This document shows, one piece after another, positions 53,982 to 64,000 of a stretch of DNA of 64,000 bases. The notes below the pieces were generated by a model. The model had not been told where the DNA came from. It worked only from the letters and a program-made list of their open reading frames with translations, and ran no database searches. The DNA is taken from assembly GCA_002787815.1 (NCBI GenBank), contig PCUY01000075.1:11406-75405 (forward strand), given 5' to 3'. The translations under genes and the position numbers were made by a program. The stretch is from Bacteroidetes bacterium CG12_big_fil_rev_8_21_14_0_65_60_17. GTDB lineage: Bacteria > Bacteroidota > Rhodothermia > Rhodothermales > UBA10348. Position 1 is the first letter of the stretch, and each line of letters starts with the position of its first letter.

Positions 53982-54083
53982 CTATGCCGTTGACCTCCGG
54001 GACCAGAGGTACGGGCAATCTTTCGAGTTCGCGCAGGGCGCCGCAGCAGGTTGTGGTGTCCGCAGCTGACGTCGCAGTGGGTG

Positions 54084-54114
54084 GCCTGTACTTCGTTGAG
54101 GTACAGGCTTTTTT
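54084..54114 (+). terminator. Intrinsic terminator forming the riboswitch expression platform
   Basis: gcctgtacttc-gtt-gaggtacaggc followed by tttttt, ending 1 nt before ATG 54116. Confidence 0.8.
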
Positions 54115-54115
54115 C

Positions 54116-56080
54116 ATGAATCCACTTGTTTGCACATGCCTTGGCGGCGGCTTGCGAGGAGCGCTCCGGATTGCAGGCGCGCTCCTCCTGGCCACCATGC
54201 TGGCGCCTTGTGTGCTCAAAGCGCAGGATACGCCGCCGAGCGAGTCGCCTCCCGCCCGCACCGATTCCATGCGCACCGTGGCGCTGGAGGAACTCGAAAT
54301 CACGGCAGAACGCCAGATGCATCTGACCCGGACGCGGCTGCAGGCGTCCCGCGTGCGCATGACCACCTTCCGGGATGCGGCCGACGCGCTTTCCACGGCG
54401 CTCGGCGTTCGCATGCGGCGATATGGCCTGACGGGTCTTGCCACGCTCGGCATGAGAGGGGGAGATGCAGCGCACACGGCCATTCTGCTCGGTGGAATGC
54501 CCCTGGTACACCCCCAGACCGGCAGCATGGATGTGTCCCTTATTCCGACGGCGCTCGTGGCCGATGCGCTGCTGAGCGCAGGCCCCTCGGAGTCGTCCCT
54601 CTCCATGGGGGGCAGTGTGGAACTGGAAGGACCAGCACGCGGCCGGGGTGATCGCAGCGAGCAGGCCGTGCATGCCCGGACGGGCCTCTGGGGGGAGCGG
54701 GGTTTTGGCGCAGACGTCACGGAAGTGCTCGGGACAGTCCGGCTTCGCATGGTGGGAGATGCCAGCGTGGTGGGTGGCGACTTTCCGTTCAGAAACGAAT
54801 TTCTCGAGGGCAGGCCCACCGTGCGGAGGGAAGGCGCCTCGCGCACGTGGGAAAGCGGTGCCGTTGTGCTCTCGAATGCGGGAACGGCCGACTGGCCATC
54901 GTGGGAGCTCATGGCGCTGGCAAGCCGCAGTGACCGGGGTTTGCCAGGGCCATCGAACGCCGGTCAGACCAATGCCTCCCAGGAAGACAACCTGTTGCGA
55001 CTCCAGGCCCGCATGTCTGACGGCATGCGGTGGACGGCGAGCGGAGCCTACACGCAGTGGAATCTCGACTTCGATCCGGGGCGCGGCGCGGCGCTCGGCG
55101 TATCGGCCTCGCACCTCACAGCGCGTACAGCCGCTGTCCACGTGGCTTCGGGCCACCGCACGCACTCGGCGCGCAGCGAGGTGCGCCCCTCGCTGCGCGC
55201 CGAATATACCGATGCCGCCGGTCACCGGGATTGGACTGCGGAGCCGGGCGTGGCCGCCACGCGCCGTGCCAATCGTGTGACGCTCGACGTTTTTTCGCGT
55301 CTTGTCGCGTCGAATCGAAGTCCCGTAGTGCCGGCCGCCGGGGCCACGGTTTCAGCACCGGTCCGGCTTCCCGTGGCGGGCCGGATGGAACTGGAAGCCG
55401 GTTTGTCGCGGACGGTGCGGCTGCCATCGGCCGGAGAGCGCTACCACGTACCCGGTGGGAATCCGGACCTGCGAGCCGAGCGCGGACGAACAGCACAGCT
55501 GTCGGTGGGCACACCCACCCCGATTGGCATGCTCCGCGTGACGGCGTTCCGGTCGCTCCTGGTGGACCGCATTCTCTGGAGGCCACTGTTTGCGGGTCCG
55601 GGGCTGCAGGTGTTTCACCCCGAAAATGTGGGGCGCGTCCGGTCCATGGGGATCGAGTGGGCGTTCAGCGGCGCAGCGCAGGGGGCGCGCGCGTCGGTGT
55701 CATGGCGCGCACGCGCTACGCACGTGCGCGCGGAAGACATCTCCGACGCGCGCGCCCCCAGCCACGGTCACCAATTGCGCTACACGCCCGTAACGAGTGC
55801 CACCGGCGAGGTTCGCGTGGCGGTCGGCGCCGTATCGGGCGGCATCACGTCCCAGTGGGAGACGCGCCGCTTCATCACGTCCGACGAATCGAGTTGGCTC
55901 AATGCCTACCACACCATGGAACTCGATGCCCGCGCCGACGGCCAAGTGCTCGGCGTGCGCATGGCCCTCTGGGTACGCATCCACAATATCACAAACACCA
56001 CATACGAAAGTATGCGGCTTTACCCCATGCCGCCCAGGCACGTCCAGGTCGGCATCCATATCAAGAGAGACAACCCATGA
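54116..56080 (+). CDS. btuB: TonB-dependent cobalamin receptor (BtuB-like)
   Basis: Plug RRYGLTGLATLGMRGG..AHTAIL.GGMPL; barrel GGNPDLRAERG, YPMPPRH; B12 riboswitch upstream. Confidence 0.82.
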   Translation: MNPLVCTCLGGGLRGALRIAGALLLATMLAPCVLKAQDTPPSESPPARTDSMRTVALEELEITAERQMHLTRTRLQASRVRMTTFRDAADALSTALGVRMRRYGLTGLATLGMRGGDAAHTAILLGGMPLVHPQTGSMDVSLIPTALVADALLSAGPSESSLSMGGSVELEGPARGRGDRSEQAVHARTGLWGERGFGADVTEVLGTVRLRMVGDASVVGGDFPFRNEFLEGRPTVRREGASRTWESGAVVLSNAGTADWPSWELMALASRSDRGLPGPSNAGQTNASQEDNLLRLQARMSDGMRWTASGAYTQWNLDFDPGRGAALGVSASHLTARTAAVHVASGHRTHSARSEVRPSLRAEYTDAAGHRDWTAEPGVAATRRANRVTLDVFSRLVASNRSPVVPAAGATVSAPVRLPVAGRMELEAGLSRTVRLPSAGERYHVPGGNPDLRAERGRTAQLSVGTPTPIGMLRVTAFRSLLVDRILWRPLFAGPGLQVFHPENVGRVRSMGIEWAFSGAAQGARASVSWRARATHVRAEDISDARAPSHGHQLRYTPVTSATGEVRVAVGAVSGGITSQWETRRFITSDESSWLNAYHTMELDARADGQVLGVRMALWVRIHNITNTTYESMRLYPMPPRHVQVGIHIKRDNP

Positions 56081-57253: not shown

Positions 57254-57502
57254 ATGCGTATAGACCGCTGCATATGTCACGATGTGCTGTTTGAAGCGCT
57301 GCATCGGGAGGCCCGCCGGCATGGGTGCGCAACTGTCAACGAGCTCCAGGCGCACACGGATTTCGGCCAGGGATGCGGGCTGTGTCACGCCTATGTGGCC
57401 GAAATGCTTCGAACCGGGCAGACGGTGTTCACGGAGCTTGTCGAGCGTCCCGATCCCGGAACCGCTCCTGCAACATGGAAATGCCGTCAGGCTCACCAAT
57501 GA
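57254..57502 (+). CDS. BFD-like (2Fe-2S)-binding protein
   Basis: RCICHDV...FGQGCGLC (CxC...CxxC). Confidence 0.85.
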   Translation: MRIDRCICHDVLFEALHREARRHGCATVNELQAHTDFGQGCGLCHAYVAEMLRTGQTVFTELVERPDPGTAPATWKCRQAHQ

Positions 57503-59549
57503 TGGTGAGACGATCGTCGGCCTCGAGCACCGTGTTCGCGCCGGGAACAGCGCTCTGCGTGCCCCGGCGGATAAGGGCCACGATGGTACCCGTCGGGAAG
57601 CCGGCCTCGCGCAGGTGGCGCCCAATGAGCTCGGCGGTTTTCCCCTTTCCATTTAGTGTGAGCGTGAAGTAGCGGTCGTGGCGTAGCAGCGTTTCCCGTA
57701 GTTCCTGTTCTCCGTCCGCCGCGAGCCATTGTTCCAGAAAGTCCGTCTCGTCAATGCGACCGGCGATGTTGGCCAGTGTCCGAAGGTGCTTCCCGGGTGG
57801 CGTCTCCGGGCTGACCAGGAAAAAGATGGCGTGCACGGGGTCTTTCTTCTTCTCGGTATCCAGGTCAAGGCCCTCAGCGCAGCGAACCATGAGCAGGCGT
57901 GGTTCATCGATAATGGCGAGCCGTTGGTGGGGCAGGGCCGCCCCCTGGCTTACCGGAGTCAGTCCGTAGGCGTAGCCGTCCATGAAATTGGCTGCCAGTT
58001 CCTTCGACGTCAGCGGAACATGCGGGGCGATCAGGTCCGATGCCCGGGCCACGATATCCTTATACGGAATCCGCTCGTCCAGGTCCAGCACAATGGCATC
58101 GGTGACAAGTTTTTCAAAAGGCGACTCGTCCGTGATCCCCTTTTCTTTCAGGATGGAGCGCAGCTCGCCGTCGAGTCCCTCGTAGCGGTACTGTCCGAGG
58201 CGTGCGAACAGATGATAAATGGCACCTTCGCGCTCCACTTTGATGTTGTCCCGGACGTAGTAGTGGTACCAGAAGAGCCCCAGCAACATGATACCGGTAC
58301 TGACCACAATGGCCAACCATCCCATCTGGCTGATCAGTATGAAGGGTGTTACGATGCCCGTGATCTGGATCCACGGATACCAGGGGCTGCGGTAGGCCGG
58401 CACGTAGGACGGAATATGGCTCTCCCGCATGACGACCACCGATACGTTGACGAGCGCAAAGATCAACAGTTGAAATGCACTGGCCAGCTTCGCAATACCC
58501 TGCACATCAAGCACGACGATCACGAGAATCATGAGCGCAGCCGTGACCAGGATACTCCGGGTCGGGGTTCCGAATCGCCCTACCGCGGCCAGGCGCGGCG
58601 TCACCAGATGGTCCCTGGCCATGGCCAGGGGATAGCGGGAAGCCGACATGATACCGGCATTTCCAGTCGATGCGAACGCCGCGACGGCCGCGATCACAAT
58701 CAGGAGCAGGCCTGCCGGCTGCGGCAACCAGTCAAAAAAGCTTTCGGCGGCCGTGGCAACCGGTGTCAGGTCGCTTCGCAGTTGATCGGCATCGAGTACG
58801 GCAATCATGATGAACACGCCGACCACATAGATGAGCGTAGCTGTCGCGAGCGAGAGCATCATGCCCAGGGGGATGTTCCTGTCCGGGTTGCGCACTTCTT
58901 CTGCAACGCTGGCGACCTTCGTCAGGCCTGCGTAGGAGACGAAAACCAGTCCGATCGTAGCCAGAAGACCACTCACCCCGAACGGTGCGAACGGTGTGAA
59001 CTGTTTGGAGACCGTGTCCCGGCCAAGCGACACGACCTCGGCCAGCCCCTGCGCTATGAAAAACGCCAGCACGCCCACCATCACGACAACCAGAAACCGT
59101 TGCAACCCACTCGTTTCCTTGGCTCCGAAAATATTCAGCGCCGTGAACACAACCGTCAGGGCTATGGCCAGCGGCTTCACTGGAATGTCCACGAAGAAGA
59201 CCAGATAGGCTCCCATGCCGACGAGTGCGAACGAGCTTTTGAGCACCAGCGCAAGCCAGGTGCCTATGCCGCCAATGGTGCCGGCCAGGGGCCCGAGACT
59301 GCGGTCCAGGAAATAATAGGAACCCCCGGCGCGCGGCATGGCCGTACTCAGCTCTGCCATGGACAGCATGGCCGGCAGGATGAGAATGCCCGCAATGAAA
59401 TACGCCAGGACGGTCGACGGTCCAGCGCTTACGGTGGCAATCCCCGGCAGGAGGAAAAACCCCGAGCTGAACATGGCACCCGTACAAATGGCATAGACGT
59501 CGAACAGACGGAGGTCTTTTTTCAGTTTCTGCTTGGGCAACCTGGGCAT
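57429..59549 (-). CDS. APC-family amino acid/cation permease fused to PTS EIIA-like and TrkA-C (RCK_C) domains
   Basis: GAMFSSGFFLLPG, ELSTAMPRAGGSY, FVSYAGLTKV, SRYPLAM; EIIA GAALPH...HAIFFLVSP...HLRTLA.IA; RCK_C LIGRHLRE..FP.G.IVALIRRG...PG.NTVLEADDRLTIIG. Confidence 0.88.
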   Translation of the reverse strand: MPRLPKQKLKKDLRLFDVYAICTGAMFSSGFFLLPGIATVSAGPSTVLAYFIAGILILPAMLSMAELSTAMPRAGGSYYFLDRSLGPLAGTIGGIGTWLALVLKSSFALVGMGAYLVFFVDIPVKPLAIALTVVFTALNIFGAKETSGLQRFLVVVMVGVLAFFIAQGLAEVVSLGRDTVSKQFTPFAPFGVSGLLATIGLVFVSYAGLTKVASVAEEVRNPDRNIPLGMMLSLATATLIYVVGVFIMIAVLDADQLRSDLTPVATAAESFFDWLPQPAGLLLIVIAAVAAFASTGNAGIMSASRYPLAMARDHLVTPRLAAVGRFGTPTRSILVTAALMILVIVVLDVQGIAKLASAFQLLIFALVNVSVVVMRESHIPSYVPAYRSPWYPWIQITGIVTPFILISQMGWLAIVVSTGIMLLGLFWYHYYVRDNIKVEREGAIYHLFARLGQYRYEGLDGELRSILKEKGITDESPFEKLVTDAIVLDLDERIPYKDIVARASDLIAPHVPLTSKELAANFMDGYAYGLTPVSQGAALPHQRLAIIDEPRLLMVRCAEGLDLDTEKKKDPVHAIFFLVSPETPPGKHLRTLANIAGRIDETDFLEQWLAADGEQELRETLLRHDRYFTLTLNGKGKTAELIGRHLREAGFPTGTIVALIRRGTQSAVPGANTVLEADDRLTIIGEPDGISMLQERFRDRDARQAP

Positions 59550-59671
59550 ACGGGCCTTGTGTGGGTGATCTGTAGGGCGAAGGTACGCCGGAGTGCATTT
59601 TCAGCAGGATCGTGCGAGCCTTATACTCTGTCCTACTCTTTTCCGCTTTGTCGCACCGAGGGAATATACGC

Positions 59672-61735
59672 ATGAATGAGGGGCACTCAGGCACGTCAGA
59701 CGCCGCAGCCGCCGGCATGTTGCCGCTTGTGGTGTGGTTGACCTGTTTCGGGGTGTGCATTCCAGGCAGTCCCAGCGCGGCGGCAGCCCAATCGGCGACG
59801 GGCTGGCCGCCGGTTGTGACCTCACATGTCGCGCCGACGACGCATGTCCCGTCACGCGCACACCTGGCGCCTGGCGGGCACGCCGCCGCCGACCATTTCG
59901 ATGTTCTCTGGTACGACCTTGATCTGGATATTGACCGCAGCCGCGCCGCCGGGCAGCAGGAAATCCTGGGCCGCGTCCGCGTACAGGGCCGCGCCCTCAC
60001 CGCGCTCGATTCCATTCGAATGGATCTGTCCTCACACATGAGCGTGTCCAATGTGCGGGATGTGGCTCCGGGCGGGACTTCGCTGTCGTTCCGCCACGAG
60101 CAGGACATTCTATGGATACGGCGCCCGACGGCGACGCACGAGACCGTGCAGCTGGAAATAACCTGGTCCGGGACGCCTGTTCCCACTGGATTCGTCTCCT
60201 GGTCGTCCGGTACGCGATTCGGTGAGCCGTGGTACTGGACGCTCAGTGAGCCCTATGGCGCGCGTTCGTGGTGGCCGGCGGATGACCACCCCTCGGACAG
60301 GGCCGATTCCGTGCGCGTGCGCGTGCGCATGCCCACGCCCACACGGGTCGGCTCGAATGGCCTGCTCACCGCCCACGTGGATCACGGAGACGGAACGGCA
60401 ACATGGGAGTGGACCCATCGGTACCCCATTGCACCCTACCTCATATCGATCGCGGCCGGTACCTACGATGTCTACGAGCAGCGCTACATCCGGCCCGATT
60501 CGTTGGCCGCGGACCTCGGGGCGCTCTCCCTTCCGATCGTGCACTACGCCTATGCCGGATCGGATGCGTTCGACGGTATCGACGCGTTTTCAGGGTGGAA
60601 GCGGGTGTTGGATGTGTTCCCGGAACTCGAGTGGTGGTACGGTTCGTACCCGTATCCGGACGAGAAGTACGGCCACGCCCATGTGACATTCGGCGGCGGC
60701 ATGGAGCACCAGACCATGAGCTCCATGGGTAACATCGGCCTCAATCTCATTGTCCATGAACTGGCCCACCAGTGGTTCGGAAACGCCCGCACACTCGGCA
60801 GCTGGCGTGACCTGTGGCTGAACGAGGGTTTCGCCACGCAGGCGGAAATCCTGTACCTCGAAGCCCGGCAACCCACTTTCGAGGACGAATACAACTTCCT
60901 CTTTCCCCTGTACAGGGATCGCGCCCTGCAGGCCGAGGGCACGCTCACGCTCCAGGACACGCTGCGCGTCGACAACATGTTTGCATTTCCCCGCGTCTAC
61001 GGCAAAGGGTTCATGGTACTTCGCATGCTGCGTACCCTGCTTGGTGATGCAGCCTACCGACGCGCCCTGCAAACCTACATGGCTGCTTCTGACCGTCCTG
61101 CTACCCCCGGCGACCTGCAGGCGGCTCTTGAGGCCGAGTCCGGCCAGGACCTGGGGCCGTTCTTCGACGCCTGGGTGCATACCGGTTGGGGACATCCCGC
61201 GCTCGAGCACACCTGGAACGCGACGCCGGATGGCGCCTTCTGGGAGATGGATCTGACCGTGCGGCAGGTGCAGGAACAGGACGCCTCCAACATCCGTGCC
61301 TTCCCCATGCCGCTCCCGGTACGGATATCGCTGCGGGACGCATCTACCCTGCAGGAAAGTCGGCGCGACACGCTGCTCGTGCTCGACCGGCAGGAGGAAA
61401 CCTTCCGGATACGGATGTCCCAGGAGCCCGTGGGTGTCTCGATTGACCCCGAAAGAAAGTCACTCTGGGTAGATGCGGCGGCCACGACGTCCGTGGCCGA
61501 TGTGCCGGAAGCATCCACTCCGGTGGTTGACATTTTTCCGAATCCCGCGCGCCAACGTGTTTCCGTACGGATCGGTGCGCCGGGAGATGTGCTTGTTGTG
61601 GATGCCCTGGGCCGACGTATCAGCAGTCAATATCTTCCTGCAGGTACGCACCGGCTCGACGTGGGACACCTTCCCGCCGGGGTGTATGCCATTCGCGTCG
61701 GGTCATATTCACGCGCGTTCATGGTAGTCCGATGA
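59672..61735 (+). CDS. M1-family zinc aminopeptidase with T9SS C-terminal sorting domain
   Basis: SEPYGARSWWP..DHPSD, GGMEH, HELAHQWFG, WLNEGFAT, VYGKG; CTD IFPNPA...DALGR...LPAGVYAIR. Confidence 0.92.
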   Translation: MNEGHSGTSDAAAAGMLPLVVWLTCFGVCIPGSPSAAAAQSATGWPPVVTSHVAPTTHVPSRAHLAPGGHAAADHFDVLWYDLDLDIDRSRAAGQQEILGRVRVQGRALTALDSIRMDLSSHMSVSNVRDVAPGGTSLSFRHEQDILWIRRPTATHETVQLEITWSGTPVPTGFVSWSSGTRFGEPWYWTLSEPYGARSWWPADDHPSDRADSVRVRVRMPTPTRVGSNGLLTAHVDHGDGTATWEWTHRYPIAPYLISIAAGTYDVYEQRYIRPDSLAADLGALSLPIVHYAYAGSDAFDGIDAFSGWKRVLDVFPELEWWYGSYPYPDEKYGHAHVTFGGGMEHQTMSSMGNIGLNLIVHELAHQWFGNARTLGSWRDLWLNEGFATQAEILYLEARQPTFEDEYNFLFPLYRDRALQAEGTLTLQDTLRVDNMFAFPRVYGKGFMVLRMLRTLLGDAAYRRALQTYMAASDRPATPGDLQAALEAESGQDLGPFFDAWVHTGWGHPALEHTWNATPDGAFWEMDLTVRQVQEQDASNIRAFPMPLPVRISLRDASTLQESRRDTLLVLDRQEETFRIRMSQEPVGVSIDPERKSLWVDAAATTSVADVPEASTPVVDIFPNPARQRVSVRIGAPGDVLVVDALGRRISSQYLPAGTHRLDVGHLPAGVYAIRVGSYSRAFMVVR

Positions 61736-61753: not shown

Positions 61754-61999
61754 TCAGCGGGCCGTCAGCGGCACGGTGTTGCCCTGGCAGTCGACCGTCT
61801 CACCCGGCTTGGGGCGCTGGGTCGGTGCATCGGAGACCGGAAGCGGGGGGTCACAGTCCTTCGGAACGTAGTGGGAGTGGTTCCCGTGCGGCACTTCCAT
61901 CCAGGGATCGGAATTGAACGCGTTCAGGGAGTCCATGAGGACGAACAGAAGAAACAGGCCCAACAGGGCAAGCAACCAATACCGGGTTTTTCCAGGCAT
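61754..61999 (-). CDS. Small membrane-anchored protein with a single histidine-triad motif (HxxHxH)
   Basis: MPGKTRYWLLALLGLFLLFVLM TM anchor, then WMEVPHGNHSHYVPKDC...DC; alternative start 62038. Confidence 0.7.
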   Translation of the reverse strand: MPGKTRYWLLALLGLFLLFVLMDSLNAFNSDPWMEVPHGNHSHYVPKDCDPPLPVSDAPTQRPKPGETVDCQGNTVPLTAR

Positions 62000-62036
62000 G
62001 ACCGAACTCACAGACTGTAAATGGGCCTGCACGCCC

Positions 62037-64000
62037 ATGGTGTGCACGGTGTTCCTGCGGGCACTGTGTGTGGGGTGCATTCTGCTGCTGGGTTGTGTCG
62101 TTTTACCGGGCATCTGCAGTGTGGCCCTGGCGCAGGATGGACATGCCGAGCCGGACGGACCCCAGGGATATATCATACGTGGTATTGTCCGTGACGCGGG
62201 CTCCAGGGTAACGCTTCCCGGAGCCAACGTGGTGGTTTCGGACAGCCTGGGACAGGTCGCCGCTGCTGCATCGACCGGGGACGACGGGCGCTATGCCCTG
62301 CGCGTTTTGGCAACCGGTCGCTATGCAGTGCAGGTCACCTTTGTCGGCTATGCGGTTTCCACCGATTCACTTCTGGTCGATGGGGAGGTGACCGAGCACA
62401 ATGTGCGTCTCCGGGCCGTGACGGCTTTCATGGACGAAGTCATTATCGAAAAGACATCGCAGAGCGATGAGGATTTTTCAGCCGGAATGACAAGGGTCGA
62501 TGCGAGCGATCTGCGGCGCGTACCGACGCCGGACGTGAGTTTCGATCTGGCGGGCTACCTGCAGTCCAGGCCCGGCGTGGTTACGACAGGCGACCGGGGC
62601 GGAGGACTCTTCATCCGTGGCGGAACGCCTACTCAGAACCTGATCCTGCTCGACGGTATACCTGTGTTCCAACCGTTCCACATCGTGGGCTTTTTCAGTG
62701 CGTTTCCGGCCGACAACATTGCCTGGGCGGACGTTTACGCGGGCGGATTTCCGGCACAGTTCGGGGGACGCATGTCGTCGGTCGTGGACATAGCCACGCG
62801 GAACGGTGATACGCACAACTACCGTGCGTCAGCGTCCATTGCACCCTTTCTGAGTGGCGTGCGGCTTGAGGTGCCCATGTTGCAGGAGCGGGCATCGGTC
62901 GTTCTGTCATTGCGGGAATCGGTCATTGACATCGTTTCAGAGGATCTTCTCGGTGAAGATCTTCCCTTCCGTTTCGGTGACAGGTTCGCCAAGTTCCATG
63001 CCCATCTGAATGCCACCTCGTCGGTCAGTGTGACCATGCTGCAGACCTTTGACGAGGGAAACCTGGACAGCACCGATGACGCGCTCTCCCGCCGATCCAC
63101 CTGGAAGAACGATGCCTACGGGGCGCGCTACAGGTACATTCCACCGGAGTCGGCCGTGATGACCGAAATCATGTTTTACTACTCGCGCCTGAGAAGTCGC
63201 TTCCGTGCGACACCCGATGATCTGCGCACGTCAGATATAGACGACCTTTCCATGCGGTTTGATTTCGTGTACCTCCTGGGTCCGTCCGAAGTCCGATTCG
63301 GCATGTTCGGTACGGCCAACTCATTCAGCTTTGACACGGGACGCAACAGCCGGGCGAACAATGGCGGCATGTCGAGTGGGGGGATGTTCGTGCAGTCTCG
63401 TATTGCCCTCTCCGACGCCGTCCGGATTGAACCAGGCGTGCGTCTTGAGGCCTTCTCGCGCGGGCAGGGCACCTCGCTCTCTCCCCGACTGAGGGCATCG
63501 TGGCAAATCGGCGGCGTGGGTGCGCGGCACCGCCTGAGTGCGGCCTGGGGCATGTACAAGCAGCAGCTCGTGGGTCTGAACCGGGAACAGGATATTTCGG
63601 ATGTCTTCACCACGTGGGCTCCCTCACCGGATTCCGACACCGTACCGGAGGCTACCCACCTGATCCTGGGATGGAAGGGGGTCGCTGCTCCATGGCTGGA
63701 GTTCTCGGTGGAGGCCTACCGGAAATGGTTGGATAATATTGCCTGGCCCGTTACAACGCGCGAATTGAACAGTCTGCCGGCGGCATCCACAGTCGACGGG
63801 ACAGCAGAGGGTGTGGACGTGGGCATGTCGGTCCGGACGACACGCGTGGGCGTCGACATCGGATACAGTCTGGCGCGGGTGGAATATCGAAGAGAGGCCC
63901 AGTTTTCGCGCAATTTCTTCCCGACGGGACTGACCCAGACCATTCGTGTAGATGCGCAGTCCTTCAATCCGCCCCACGACCGGCGACACCAGGTGAATGC
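62037..64000 (+). CDS. TonB-dependent receptor with N-terminal carboxypeptidase-regulatory-like domain, 3'-partial (absent from ORF track)
   Basis: Manual translation from ATG 62037: signal peptide ..VALAQ, IRGIVRD...LPGANV, TFVGY, DEVII, PGVVTTGDRGGGLFIRGG..QNLILLDGIPVFQPFH.VGFFSAF, FGGRMSSVVDI; I saw no in-frame stop in the part I translated and the ORF track reports none, consistent with a run-off. Confidence 0.88.
   Translation, partial: MVCTVFLRALCVGCILLLGCVVLPGICSVALAQDGHAEPDGPQGYIIRGIVRDAGSRVTLPGANVVVSDSLGQVAAAASTGDDGRYALRVLATGRYAVQVTFVGYAVSTDSLLVDGEVTEHNVRLRAVTAFMDEVIIEKTSQSDEDFSAGMTRVDASDLRRVPTPDVSFDLAGYLQSRPGVVTTGDRGGGLFIRGGTPTQNLILLDGIPVFQPFHIVGFFSAFPADNIAWADVYAGGFPAQFGGRMSSVVDIATRNGDTHNYRASASIAPFLSGVRLEVPMLQERASVVLSLRESVIDIVSEDLLGEDLPFRFGDRFAKFHAHLNATSSVSVTMLQTFDEGNLDSTDDALSRRSTWKNDAYGARYRYIPPESAVMTEIMFYYSRLRSRFRATPDDLRTSDIDDLSMRFDFVYLLGPSEVRFGMFGTANSFSFDTGRNSRANNGGMSSGGMFVQSRIALSDAVRIEPGVRLEAFSRGQGTSLSPRLRASWQIGGVGARHRLSAAWGMYKQQLVGLNREQDISDVFTTWAPSPDSDTVPEATHLILGWKGVAAPWLEFSVEAYRKWLDNIAWPVTTRELNSLPAASTVDGTAEGVDVGMSVRTTRVGVDIGYSLARVEYRREAQFSRNFFPTGLTQTIRVDAQSFNPPHDRRHQVN

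What the first reader, a model, noticed from the sequence alone, without database searches (positions are those of the whole stretch)
61754..62040. Minimal Pht-like histidine-triad protein in a diderm, head-to-head with a TonB-dependent receptor
Seen: an 81-aa ORF with an N-terminal TM anchor and VPHGNHSHYVPK (His codons within 61871-61888), followed by two Cys that could form a disulfide. It starts 37 bp from the divergent TonB receptor and ends 18 bp from a Zn-dependent M1 peptidase. Known: streptococcal Pht proteins use repeated HxxHxH motifs in the context VPHGDHYHYIPK to bind Zn and pass it to AdcAII. Inference: a single-module periplasmic Zn/Ni chaperone working with the neighbouring receptor, which would be an undescribed metal-acquisition pairing.
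Basis: partly seen in the sequence, partly recalled or inferred. Interest (0 to 1): 0.63.

Follow-up and report, generated by a model that had tools for sequence, protein, structure and literature searches.

The report
Membrane-tethered Pht-like histidine-triad mini-protein
This is a real, conserved 81-residue gene of Rhodothermia bacteria for a membrane-anchored periplasmic mini-protein whose three-histidine hairpin matches the zinc site of pneumococcal Pht proteins. It sits beside outer-membrane TonB-dependent transporters far more often than chance, so it is probably an undescribed envelope metal (most likely zinc) handler, but no metal binding has been tested.

Summary
Window 61754-61999 (-) encodes an 81-aa protein with a short N-terminus, one TM helix, VPHGNHSHYVPK and two Cys. 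It lies 37 bp from a divergent TonB-dependent receptor and 18 bp from a convergent M1 peptidase.

The gene is real:
- dN/dS is 0.06-0.2.
- 274 species-level relatives exist, confined to Rhodothermales and Balneolales.
- The three His are essentially invariant.

It is not a member of the streptococcal Pht family. It scores below the Pfam and TIGRFAM cut-offs, none of about 95 relatives meets the published Pht signature, and Foldseek finds no PDB match for a confident AF2 model. It does share the 18-residue His-triad hairpin with Pht (hhalign 96.5%, E 8e-10).

The receptor link is partly supported. A receptor is the divergent neighbour in about 48 of 88 informative loci. These receptors belong to at least four non-orthologous lineages, against a background of about 0.8% of genes. 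The other 40 loci lack it.

Exported Zn hydrolases also recur nearby (M1 peptidase, alkaline phosphatase, amidohydrolase). No Fur/Zur-like box was found.

Best reading: an inner-membrane-tethered periplasmic 3-His metal site, probably zinc, that serves envelope metal trafficking. This is an undescribed family with an untested function.

The parts
61754..61999 (-). CDS of the 81-aa mini-protein (stop codon 61754-61756)
   Evidence: Homologues of the same length appear. dN/dS is 0.055-0.2.
61928..61987 (-). N-terminal signal-anchor TM helix (residues 5-24). K4 and R6 lie on the cytoplasmic side.
   Evidence: AF2 predicts a helix at 5-24 with pLDDT >90. Relatives carry Pro or no small residues where a signal-peptidase site would be, so the helix is read as uncleaved; this is an inference.
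61862..61903 (-). His-triad beta-hairpin (residues 33-46: WMEVPHGNHSHYVP). H38 is at 61886-61888, H41 at 61877-61879 and H43 at 61871-61873.
   Evidence: AF2 strands 33-38 and 41-46. The His are invariant. This is the only part that aligns to Pht.
61757..61861 (-). C-terminal Pro-rich loop plus a second small hairpin (residues 47-81; family consensus KDRDPDVPxSxFPTxPPGPxERITPxGxIV). In this clade it is stapled by Cys49 (61853-61855) and Cys71 (61787-61789).
   Evidence: Family alignments. AF2 strands 67-69 and 75-77. Cys occur as 0 (210), 2 (71), 1 (5) or 3 (3) per domain in 289 unique domains.
62000..62036 (.). 37-bp divergent intergenic spacer between the mini-protein and the receptor
   Evidence: No Fur/Zur-like box above the shuffled control in 40 homologous spacers.
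62037..64000 (+). TonB-dependent receptor 1 (CarboxypepD_reg + Plug + barrel; 780 aa). It runs past the window end to about 64379 in window numbering.
   Evidence: Pfam. It is followed on the contig by a DUF4249-like lipoprotein, a second receptor and a DUF4249 lipoprotein.
59612..61735 (+). Convergent exported M1 zinc aminopeptidase with a T9SS C-terminal sorting domain. It is a neighbour, and it is not shown to belong to the system.
   Evidence: Pfam and NCBIfam. M1 lies within 3 genes in 28 of 96 loci.

Best explanation
The gene encodes an inner-membrane-tethered periplasmic mini-protein. It has a 4-8-residue cytoplasmic N-terminus, one TM helix and a compact domain of about 55 residues. 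The first beta-hairpin of that domain displays three invariant histidines (H38, H41, H43) in the same PHGxHxHYVPK arrangement that binds Zn2+ in streptococcal Pht proteins. The rest of the domain is a Pro-rich loop and a second hairpin, stapled by a disulfide in this clade. It is unrelated to Pht and matches no solved fold. No fourth metal ligand is conserved, so I infer an open, exchangeable 3-His site suited to picking up and passing on a divalent metal, most likely zinc. It would act at the periplasmic face of the inner membrane, downstream of TonB-dependent outer-membrane uptake. Shown: the gene is real, the topology logic holds, the His are conserved, the hairpin is related to Pht, and the gene is non-randomly adjacent to TonB-dependent transporters. 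Inferred: metal binding, zinc as the metal, and hand-over to or from a partner.
For: The gene is real and under purifying selection. The family has about 55 representative clusters in 1.84 billion proteins and 274 species-level genome hits, confined to Rhodothermales and Balneolales, in 42 of 401 genomes of the phylum. H38, G39, H41, H43 and P46 are invariant. The Pht hairpin relation rests. Three lines place the domain outside the cytoplasm: positive residues before the TM helix, Cys that come in pairs at five or more different position pairs, and fusion relatives that carry lipoprotein or signal peptides or FG-GAP repeats. The AF2 models are confident (pLDDT 94.7 and 93.7). A receptor is the divergent upstream neighbour in about 48 of 88 informative loci. 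These receptors come from a Rhodothermales TBDR1 clade, a TBDR2 clade, a remote Balneolales clade, a receptor without the CarboxypepD_reg domain (L043) and a convergent outlier (L052). Receptors are only 21 genes of a 2.9-Mb genome. In one lineage a TonB_C-like gene follows the mini-gene. Exported Zn-type hydrolases recur nearby: M1 peptidase in 28 loci, PhoA-type alkaline phosphatase co-directional at +1 in 3 loci, and Amidohydro_1 in 8 loci. The alkaline phosphatases, the amidohydrolases and most M1 copies show signal peptides.
Against: No Fur/Zur-like operator exceeds the shuffled controls in 40 shared intergenic regions. The own-genome upstream regions of the two ZnuA-like genes share no motif with this spacer that I could see by eye. 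40 of 88 informative loci have no receptor beside the gene, for example Rubrivirga, where it faces shikimate kinase, and Longimonas. The neighbouring receptors and DUF4249-like lipoproteins have no His-rich loops, and their substrate is unknown. The genome has a separate ZnuA-ZnuB-receptor cluster on another contig. Much of the receptor adjacency in Rhodothermales is a single inherited arrangement. In two-module relatives the second module has lost the His triad yet keeps the fold-defining residues, so the domain may have a role beyond metal binding.
Confidence: 0.5

Rival explanations
1. It is a periplasmic zinc metallochaperone or buffer for exported zinc hydrolases, and not a partner of the receptor. 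It would sit at the Sec exit face of the inner membrane and load Zn into newly exported enzymes such as the T9SS-secreted M1 aminopeptidase, PhoA-type alkaline phosphatase and amidohydrolases.
For: An M1 peptidase lies within 3 genes in 28 of 96 loci and in three different arrangements: convergent, directly divergent (L042), and divergent with one gene between (L047, L120, L125). Alkaline phosphatase lies immediately downstream on the same strand in L047, L120 and L125. Amidohydro_1 lies downstream on the same strand in 8 loci. The alkaline phosphatases, the amidohydrolases and most M1 copies show N-terminal signal peptides. An open 3-His site fits a donor role.
Against: Most of these hydrolase neighbours belong to one Rhodothermales synteny block, so the counts are not independent. 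M1 is never co-oriented in an operon-like way. Many loci have no hydrolase nearby (Balneolales, Rubrivirga, Longimonas). No such chaperone for Sec-exported Zn enzymes is established.
Confidence: 0.2
2. It would act as an envelope chaperone or sensor.
For: His3 sites also bind Cu(II) and Ni(II). In the Rubrivirga-type subfamily the usually conserved Glu of 'GERI' is Met or Gln, and Met is a typical Cu(I) ligand.
Against: No copper or cytochrome-maturation family appears among any recurrent neighbour cluster in 96 loci, in 2 Rubrivirga-type loci, or in the 25 most frequent of the 115 families matched by 87 further +/-1/+/-2 neighbours. No Met- or Cys-rich Cu motifs exist in the family. The only experimentally characterised carriers of this hairpin bind Zn (PMC3842936).
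Confidence: 0.12
3. It is not primarily a metal protein. It would be a small envelope accessory of TonB-dependent transport, for example contacting the receptor's periplasmic face or TonB/ExbBD through beta-strand addition. The histidines would serve structure or pH sensing.
For: The gene is adjacent to several non-orthologous receptors. A TonB_C-like gene follows it in L057. Second modules that lost the His triad keep the rest of the domain. The most extended conserved block is the non-His 'FPTxPPGPxERITPxGxIV'.
Against: The His triad, together with its Pht-identical non-ligand context (P, G, Y, P, K), is the most invariant feature of the family. Half of the loci lack a receptor. The TonB_C hit is at threshold (21.9 bits against a cut-off of 22) and occurs in one lineage only.
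Confidence: 0.13

Closest known systems
[quoted passage not shown]
   Same: It shares the 18-residue hairpin xVPHG(N/D)HxHY(V/I)PK, with three His in HxxHxH spacing and the same non-ligand Pro, Gly, Tyr, Pro and Lys. It is extracytoplasmic and anchored to the cell membrane. The inferred job is Zn capture and transfer.
   Different: It has a single triad, whereas Pht proteins carry up to five or six. It occurs in a diderm (Bacteroidota, class Rhodothermia) and not in Lactobacillales. The Pht first strand, with its [DEH]-G-hydrophobic start that Bersch et al. built from the Zn-site residues, and the Pht C-terminal helix are missing. They are replaced by a TM helix and a Pro-rich loop plus second hairpin. 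It scores below the Pfam and TIGRFAM cut-offs. There is no adjacent AdcAII/Lmb-type binding protein. It is 81 aa against 800-1100 aa.
Periplasmic zinc chaperones and capture proteins of Gram-negatives: ZinT, AztD, PA4063, Zcp (DUF4198)
   Same: The proposed role is the same: a periplasmic accessory that binds Zn through His ligands and hands it to a transporter (abstracts and text of PMC3842936, PMC6689063, PMC8561739 and PMC12663993 seen).
   Different: There is no sequence or fold similarity (no Pfam or NCBIfam hit; no PDB hit). It is membrane-tethered and not soluble. It is much smaller. It is not encoded with znuABC or aztABC. No Zur control is detectable.
Non-SusC TonB-dependent transporter plus DUF4249 'lid' lipoprotein pairs of Bacteroidota (BT2172/BT2173; bioRxiv 10.1101/2023.03.17.533168)
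   Same: The neighbouring genes are two such pairs: a CarboxypepD_reg-Plug-barrel receptor followed by a lipoprotein of about 290 aa. The second lipoprotein hits DUF4249 (28.9 bits against a cut-off of 28.5). The first is only similar to the second.
   Different: No small His-triad partner has been described for these pairs, and their substrate is unknown. The mini-protein is in the inner membrane, not the outer membrane.

Membership tests
Streptococcal histidine-triad family (Pfam PF04270) | Score at or above the Pfam gathering threshold (27 bits) | tested here: not met
   19.1 bits, E 1.3e-3. Only residues 36-48 match profile positions 24-36 of 52.
Streptococcal histidine-triad family (TIGR01363) | Score at or above the NCBIfam cut-off (33 bits) | tested here: not met
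   12.9 bits, E 0.04.
Streptococcal histidine-triad family (Bersch et al. 2013 signature, PMC3842936) | [DEH]-G-phi-x(12,16)-phi-[phi/A]-phi-x-H-x2-H-x-H-phi-phi, i.e. the first strand that begins with the [DEH] residue, plus the hairpin | tested here: not met
   The regex gave 0 full matches in 38 locus-encoded members and in all small representatives. True Pht proteins in the same hit list gave 2-6 matches each. Here E35 occupies a hydrophobic position, and the TM helix lies where the [DEH]-G strand should be.
Streptococcal histidine-triad family | HxxHxH followed by two hydrophobic residues (the core Zn hairpin) | tested here: met
   Present in 37 of 38 locus members and nearly all representatives. 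hhalign gives 96.5% probability and E 7.8e-10 over 18 columns.
Streptococcal histidine-triad family | Two or more triads per protein (the criterion Bersch et al. used) | tested here: not met
   There is one triad. In two-module relatives the second module lacks the His.
Streptococcal histidine-triad family | Three-stranded beta-sheet fold of the PhtA and PhtD triad domain | tested here: inconclusive
   AF2 gives the hairpin (strands 33-38 and 41-46) plus two short C-terminal strands. Foldseek against the PDB finds nothing with E<1 and no Pht entry.
Streptococcal histidine-triad family | Genetic linkage to an AdcAII/Lmb (ZnuA-family) binding protein | tested here: not met
   The two ZnuA-family genes of this genome are on other contigs. 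No ZnuA-family cluster appears among the recurrent neighbours in 96 loci.
Streptococcal histidine-triad family | Zn2+ binding by the three His | not testable with these tools
   This needs ICP-MS, ITC or a structure of the purified domain.
Zur/Fur-regulated zinc-uptake genes | A Fur-family operator upstream | tested here: inconclusive
   Best matches to four Fur/Zur consensus boxes in 40 shared intergenic regions equal those in shuffled controls. The Zur box of Rhodothermia is unknown. The genome has a single Fur-family gene.
TonB-dependent transporter plus DUF4249 lid pair (the neighbours) | Plug plus beta-barrel receptor followed by a DUF4249 lipoprotein | tested here: met
   Receptor domains. 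DUF4249 scores 28.9 bits against a cut-off of 28.5 for the second lipoprotein. The first lipoprotein is 25% identical to it (E 1e-9 to 1e-14) but has no Pfam hit.

The most novel reading that the evidence does not exclude
The family is a previously unrecognised class of inner-membrane-tethered periplasmic zinc 'hand-over' proteins. Its open three-histidine hairpin is the same hairpin that Gram-positive Pht proteins use on the cell surface, here without a fixed fourth ligand. It would receive Zn that enters through TonB-dependent transporter/lid pairs. It would pass the Zn to inner-membrane importers and to newly exported Zn hydrolases (M1 aminopeptidase, alkaline phosphatase, amidohydrolase). 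That would be a dedicated envelope metallation step in diderms.
Probability: 0.2. Interest if true: 0.75.

Novelty: new variant of a known kind. Interest (0 to 1): 0.5.

Why it matters
How zinc crosses the periplasm, and how exported zinc enzymes get their metal, is poorly understood outside a few proteobacterial chaperones. The Pht histidine triad has been treated as restricted to Firmicutes (PMC3842936). Finding the same hairpin as the invariant core of a separate, tiny, membrane-anchored family in Rhodothermia matters for two reasons. It would show that the triad hairpin is a portable metal-binding unit reused across the monoderm/diderm divide. It would also give a simple handle of about 55 residues for studying metal hand-over next to the still substrate-less TBDT-DUF4249 transporters of Bacteroidota. 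If it does not bind metal, it is merely one more conserved hypothetical protein.

Tried and rejected
(1) Longer ORF versions (TTG at 62227, ATG at 62038) were rejected because all homologues start just before the TM helix.

(2) Pht family membership was rejected on Pfam, TIGRFAM and PROSITE-type criteria.

(3) Foldseek of the full-length and soluble-domain models against the PDB found nothing significant.

(4) I looked for a functional link to the M1 peptidase as an operon partner. It is never co-oriented, and the gene downstream of the mini-gene varies between GNAT, amidohydrolase, alkaline phosphatase, a 4-TM protein and others.

(5) Zur/Fur box search. I inspected the upstream regions of the znuA-like genes, the fur-family gene and this spacer by eye. 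K-mer enrichment showed only TATTAT-like, probably -10, elements. Consensus-box scans did no better than shuffles. A Gibbs sampler timed out.

(7) His-rich loops in the neighbouring receptors and lipoproteins: none. There is no PDB sequence relative of the receptor.

(8) The N-terminal extension of the ArsP_1 permease upstream in L053 looked ZIP-like by eye, but Pfam does not support this.

(10) ZepA (PMC10957091) was checked and is unrelated.
Full report
OBSERVATION. The minus-strand ORF at window 61754-61999 translates to an 81-residue protein, MPGKTRYWLLALLGLFLLFVLMDSLNAFNSDPWMEVPHGNHSHYVPKDCDPPLPVSDAPTQRPKPGETVDCQGNTVPLTAR. The two Cys are C49 and C71. The start lies 37 bp from the ATG (62037) of a divergent TonB-dependent receptor. 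The stop lies 18 bp from the end (61735) of a convergent M1 peptidase ORF. It reaches an alternative in-frame ATG at 62038 that overlaps the receptor's ATG. Homologues show the start is at 61999.

IS IT A GENE? Yes.
- A word-index search found 12 proteins of 78-104 aa at 54-91% identity. They share an invariant block VPHGNHxH..PKDC.P.L...C.
- A profile search of 1.84 billion representative proteins gave 65 hits with E<=1e-3, about 55 of them small proteins of the same build.
- A scan of one genome per prokaryotic species found 274 relatives. The titles of the 80 loci returned name Rhodothermales, Balneolales, Salinibacteraceae/Longimonas, Cyclonatronaceae and a few MAGs labelled Chitinophagales.
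- In an even sample of the phylum the gene is in 42 of 401 genomes and 22 of 179 genera, all but one weak hit in the window's own class.
- dN/dS is 0.055 for the closest unsaturated pair and about 0.17-0.2 for more distant pairs.
- Every source that names these proteins calls them hypothetical.

ANATOMY. The wider family consensus is a short basic N-terminus, a TM helix, then F(D/N)xxPYxEVPHGxHxHYVPKDRDPDVPxSxFPTxPPGPxERITPxGxIV.
- In 59 diverse soluble domains H38, G39, H41, H43, P46 and P63 are invariant. F28, Y44, P59, G73 and V76 are nearly so. No acidic residue is invariant.
- AlphaFold2 gives confident models: pLDDT 94.7 for the full length and 93.7 for residues 26-81. They show helix 5-24, hairpin 33-38/41-46, a Pro-rich loop and a second small hairpin 67-69/75-77.
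- The Cys pair is clade-specific. Of 289 unique soluble domains, 210 have no Cys, 71 have two, 5 have one and 3 have three. The pairs occupy at least five different position combinations. Cys that appear only in pairs, at shifting positions, are the signature of disulfides, so the domain sits in an oxidising compartment.
- Three further points place the domain in the periplasm, tethered to the inner membrane. Positive charges precede the helix. Many relatives have Pro, or no small residues, where a signal-peptidase site would be. Fusion relatives carry a lipobox, cleavable signal peptides or FG-GAP repeats. This placement is an inference.

RELATION TO Pht. The similarity is real but short.
- Pfam PF04270 scores 19.1 bits (cut-off 27) over 13 residues. 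TIGR01363 scores 12.9 bits (cut-off 33).
- The family profile finds bona fide Pht proteins in the whole-library search through 5-6 repeated hits to profile positions 34-48. One example is P0056, E 6.9e-10, which Pfam confirms as a 7-triad Strep_his_triad protein.
- Against PDB sequences the top hits are PhtD 9P1V (E 3.3e-4), PhtA 2CS7 (E 4.9e-4) and PhtD 6CSL, each over 16-17 residues.
- Profile-profile comparison with an alignment of 17 Pht modules gives 96.5% probability and E 7.8e-10. It aligns only 18 columns, M34-P51 against 'FIVPHGNHFHYIPKSDLS'.
- The published structural signature of the streptococcal triad requires an upstream [DEH]-G-hydrophobic strand start, which Bersch et al. built from the conserved Zn-site residues and the surrounding sheet, plus three hydrophobic positions before the triad (PMC3842936). 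It is matched by 0 of 38 locus-encoded members and by none of the small representatives. The true Pht proteins in my hit list match it 2-6 times each.
- Foldseek finds no solved structure similar to either model and no Pht entry. The best E-values are 1.4 and 3.1.
- Conclusion: the protein is not a member of the Pht family. It carries the same His-triad hairpin embedded in a different small domain with no detectable structural relative. Whether the hairpin is shared by descent or by convergence cannot be decided from 18 residues.

GENE NEIGHBOURHOOD. On the window's contig the receptor is followed by a DUF4249-like lipoprotein, a second CarboxypepD_reg receptor, a DUF4249 lipoprotein, a GT2 glycosyltransferase and a class-IV aminotransferase. 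DUF4249 lipoproteins have been proposed as lids of non-SusC TonB-dependent transporters (bioRxiv 10.1101/2023.03.17.533168).
- I compared 96 dereplicated loci. A receptor is the immediately upstream, divergent gene in about 48 of 88 informative loci. Of these, 41 were called directly. In the other 7 my crude ORF caller picked the receptor's shadow frame; three of those were verified as receptors by other calls (9, 15, 25).
- The downstream gene varies: GNAT, M1 peptidase, amidohydrolase, alkaline phosphatase, a 4-TM protein of about 120 aa in Balneolales, and housekeeping genes.
- A tree of the receptors shows that the Rhodothermales upstream receptors form one orthologous clade (TBDR1). At least one locus in the tree (L107) has a TBDR2-type receptor there instead, and L020's neighbour is closer to TBDR2 by BLAST identity. 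The Balneolales upstream receptors form a very distant clade. A receptor without the CarboxypepD_reg domain is divergent in L043, and an outlier receptor is convergent in L052.
- Receptors are 21 genes in this 2.9-Mb genome, about 0.8% of genes. Repeated adjacency to at least four non-orthologous receptor lineages in two orders is therefore unlikely to be chance or pure inherited synteny.
- Against this, 40 informative loci have no receptor next to the gene. In several of them the mini-gene directly faces the aminotransferase or GT2 that flanks the receptor cassettes elsewhere. So the cassettes behave as an insertable unit.
- In Rubrivirga-type genomes the gene stands alone opposite shikimate kinase.
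- In one lineage with a two-module variant the order is receptor, then divergently the mini-gene followed by a TonB_C-like gene. The TonB_C hit scores 21.9 bits against a cut-off of 22.

WHICH METAL? There is no direct evidence.
- For zinc: the only characterised carriers of this hairpin bind Zn2+ and pass it to AdcAII (PMC3842936). Exported Zn-type hydrolases also recur around the gene: M1 aminopeptidase within three genes in 28 loci and in three arrangements, PhoA-type alkaline phosphatase immediately downstream on the same strand in three loci, and Amidohydro_1 in eight. The alkaline phosphatases, the amidohydrolases and most M1 copies show signal peptides. Most of these belong to one synteny block, so the support is modest.
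- Against or neutral: no Fur/Zur-like box scores above shuffled controls in 40 shared intergenic regions, and k-mer enrichment shows only TATTAT-like, probably -10, elements. The receptors and lipoproteins have no His-rich loops. The genome has a separate ZnuA-ZnuB-receptor-lipoprotein cluster elsewhere.
I could not reproduce that context in any neighbourhood I annotated. That covers all recurrent clusters, about 40 singletons, and a tally over 87 further neighbours in which no family occurred more than twice. My sample is biased to the closest 80 of 274 loci.

MECHANISM PROPOSED. This is inferred. The three His on one face of the hairpin form a metal site at the periplasmic surface of the inner membrane. 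The fourth ligand of Pht has no counterpart here, and no other side chain is invariant. The site is therefore probably completed by water or by a partner's residue. That makes it labile and suited to hand-over, not storage. The conserved 'FPTxPPGPxERITPxGxIV' surface, kept even in second modules that lost their His, is a candidate partner-binding face. I rate the parts as follows:
- Real periplasmic His-triad protein: about 0.85.
- Metal binding: about 0.7.
- Zinc as the metal: about 0.5.
- Functional coupling to the adjacent transporter: about 0.35.

NOVELTY. No paper in the searched library describes a Pht-type triad outside Firmicutes or a partner of this kind for TBDT-DUF4249 pairs. Bersch et al. 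found their motif only in Firmicutes. The family has no Pfam or NCBIfam model. I class it as a new variant of a known kind: a known metal-binding hairpin in a new family, architecture and phylum. It was already flagged once within this scan, in another genome.

LIMITS. Gene calling in the comparison loci was a crude longest-ORF method.

Noticed in passing
beyond the window end: G000 contig C82, L009:3685-7959 (about 64279-68553 in window numbering): Two tandem transporter/lid pairs follow the mini-gene: receptor 1, a DUF4249-like lipoprotein with no Pfam hit, receptor 2, then a DUF4249 lipoprotein. GT2 and a class-IV aminotransferase come next. In relatives that lack the cassettes the mini-gene directly faces the aminotransferase or GT2, as if the cassettes were inserted.
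   Followed up: partly
L055 (G128), L057 (G040); proteins P0021, P0025, P0028, P0034: Two-module variants of 124-197 aa. The second module keeps 'YYVP...FPTxxPGxGExIxPxGxV' but has lost all three histidines (for example GDVTYYVP). This suggests the fold has a role independent of the metal site. In L057 a TonB_C-like gene follows on the same strand.
   Followed up: partly
proteins P0059, P0065, P0071, P0077, P0070: The module also occurs fused to other domains. It lies after a lipoprotein signal in a 505-aa protein and at the C-terminus of secreted proteins of about 250 aa with unknown N-domains. It is also embedded in a 912-aa FG-GAP repeat protein.
   Followed up: no
G000 contig C63:9251-15055: A ZnuA-like binding protein, a ZnuB-like permease, a CarboxypepD_reg TonB-dependent receptor and a 185-aa lipoprotein lie in one direction. 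This is the genome's more conventional candidate zinc or manganese uptake locus, away from the mini-gene.
   Followed up: no
L047, L120, L125: In these Rhodothermales the mini-gene is followed on the same strand by an exported PhoA-type alkaline phosphatase. It is preceded, divergently, by an unknown 318-aa lipoprotein and an M1 peptidase.
   Followed up: partly
Balneolales loci L105, L111, L113-L115, L119, L121, L124, L128, L132, L135, L137, L141: A conserved 4-TM protein of about 120 aa (weak DUF2626 hit, conserved RKHxMH) lies 45-220 nt downstream of the mini-gene on the same strand in 13 loci. It is a possible operon partner of unknown function.
   Followed up: no
L053:3852-5822: A 656-aa ArsP_1-family permease with an N-terminal membrane extension of about 250 aa that contains His/Asp motifs lies immediately upstream of the mini-gene on the same strand (53-bp gap). 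Pfam does not call the extension ZIP.
   Followed up: partly
window 62036-62039: The receptor's ATG (62037-62039, + strand) and an alternative in-frame ATG of the mini-gene (62038-62036, - strand) overlap in the palindrome CATG. Homologues argue against use of the upstream start.
   Followed up: yes
window 57429-59549 (-): A 706-aa fusion of an APC amino-acid permease with PTS EIIA-2 and TrkA_C domains (Pfam). Another first-reader note already covers it.
   Followed up: no
window 53984-56080 (+): A third TonB-dependent receptor in the window (Plug + barrel, 698 aa) has an unknown 297-aa gene convergent on it. An OEP-family outer-membrane efflux protein and MlaC lie upstream.
   Followed up: no
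87 miscellaneous +/-1/+/-2 neighbours of family members (alignment A6): Two of the 87 are MarR-family regulators. Streptococcal pht genes are controlled by the MarR-type zinc sensor AdcR. I did not determine which loci these are.
   Followed up: no
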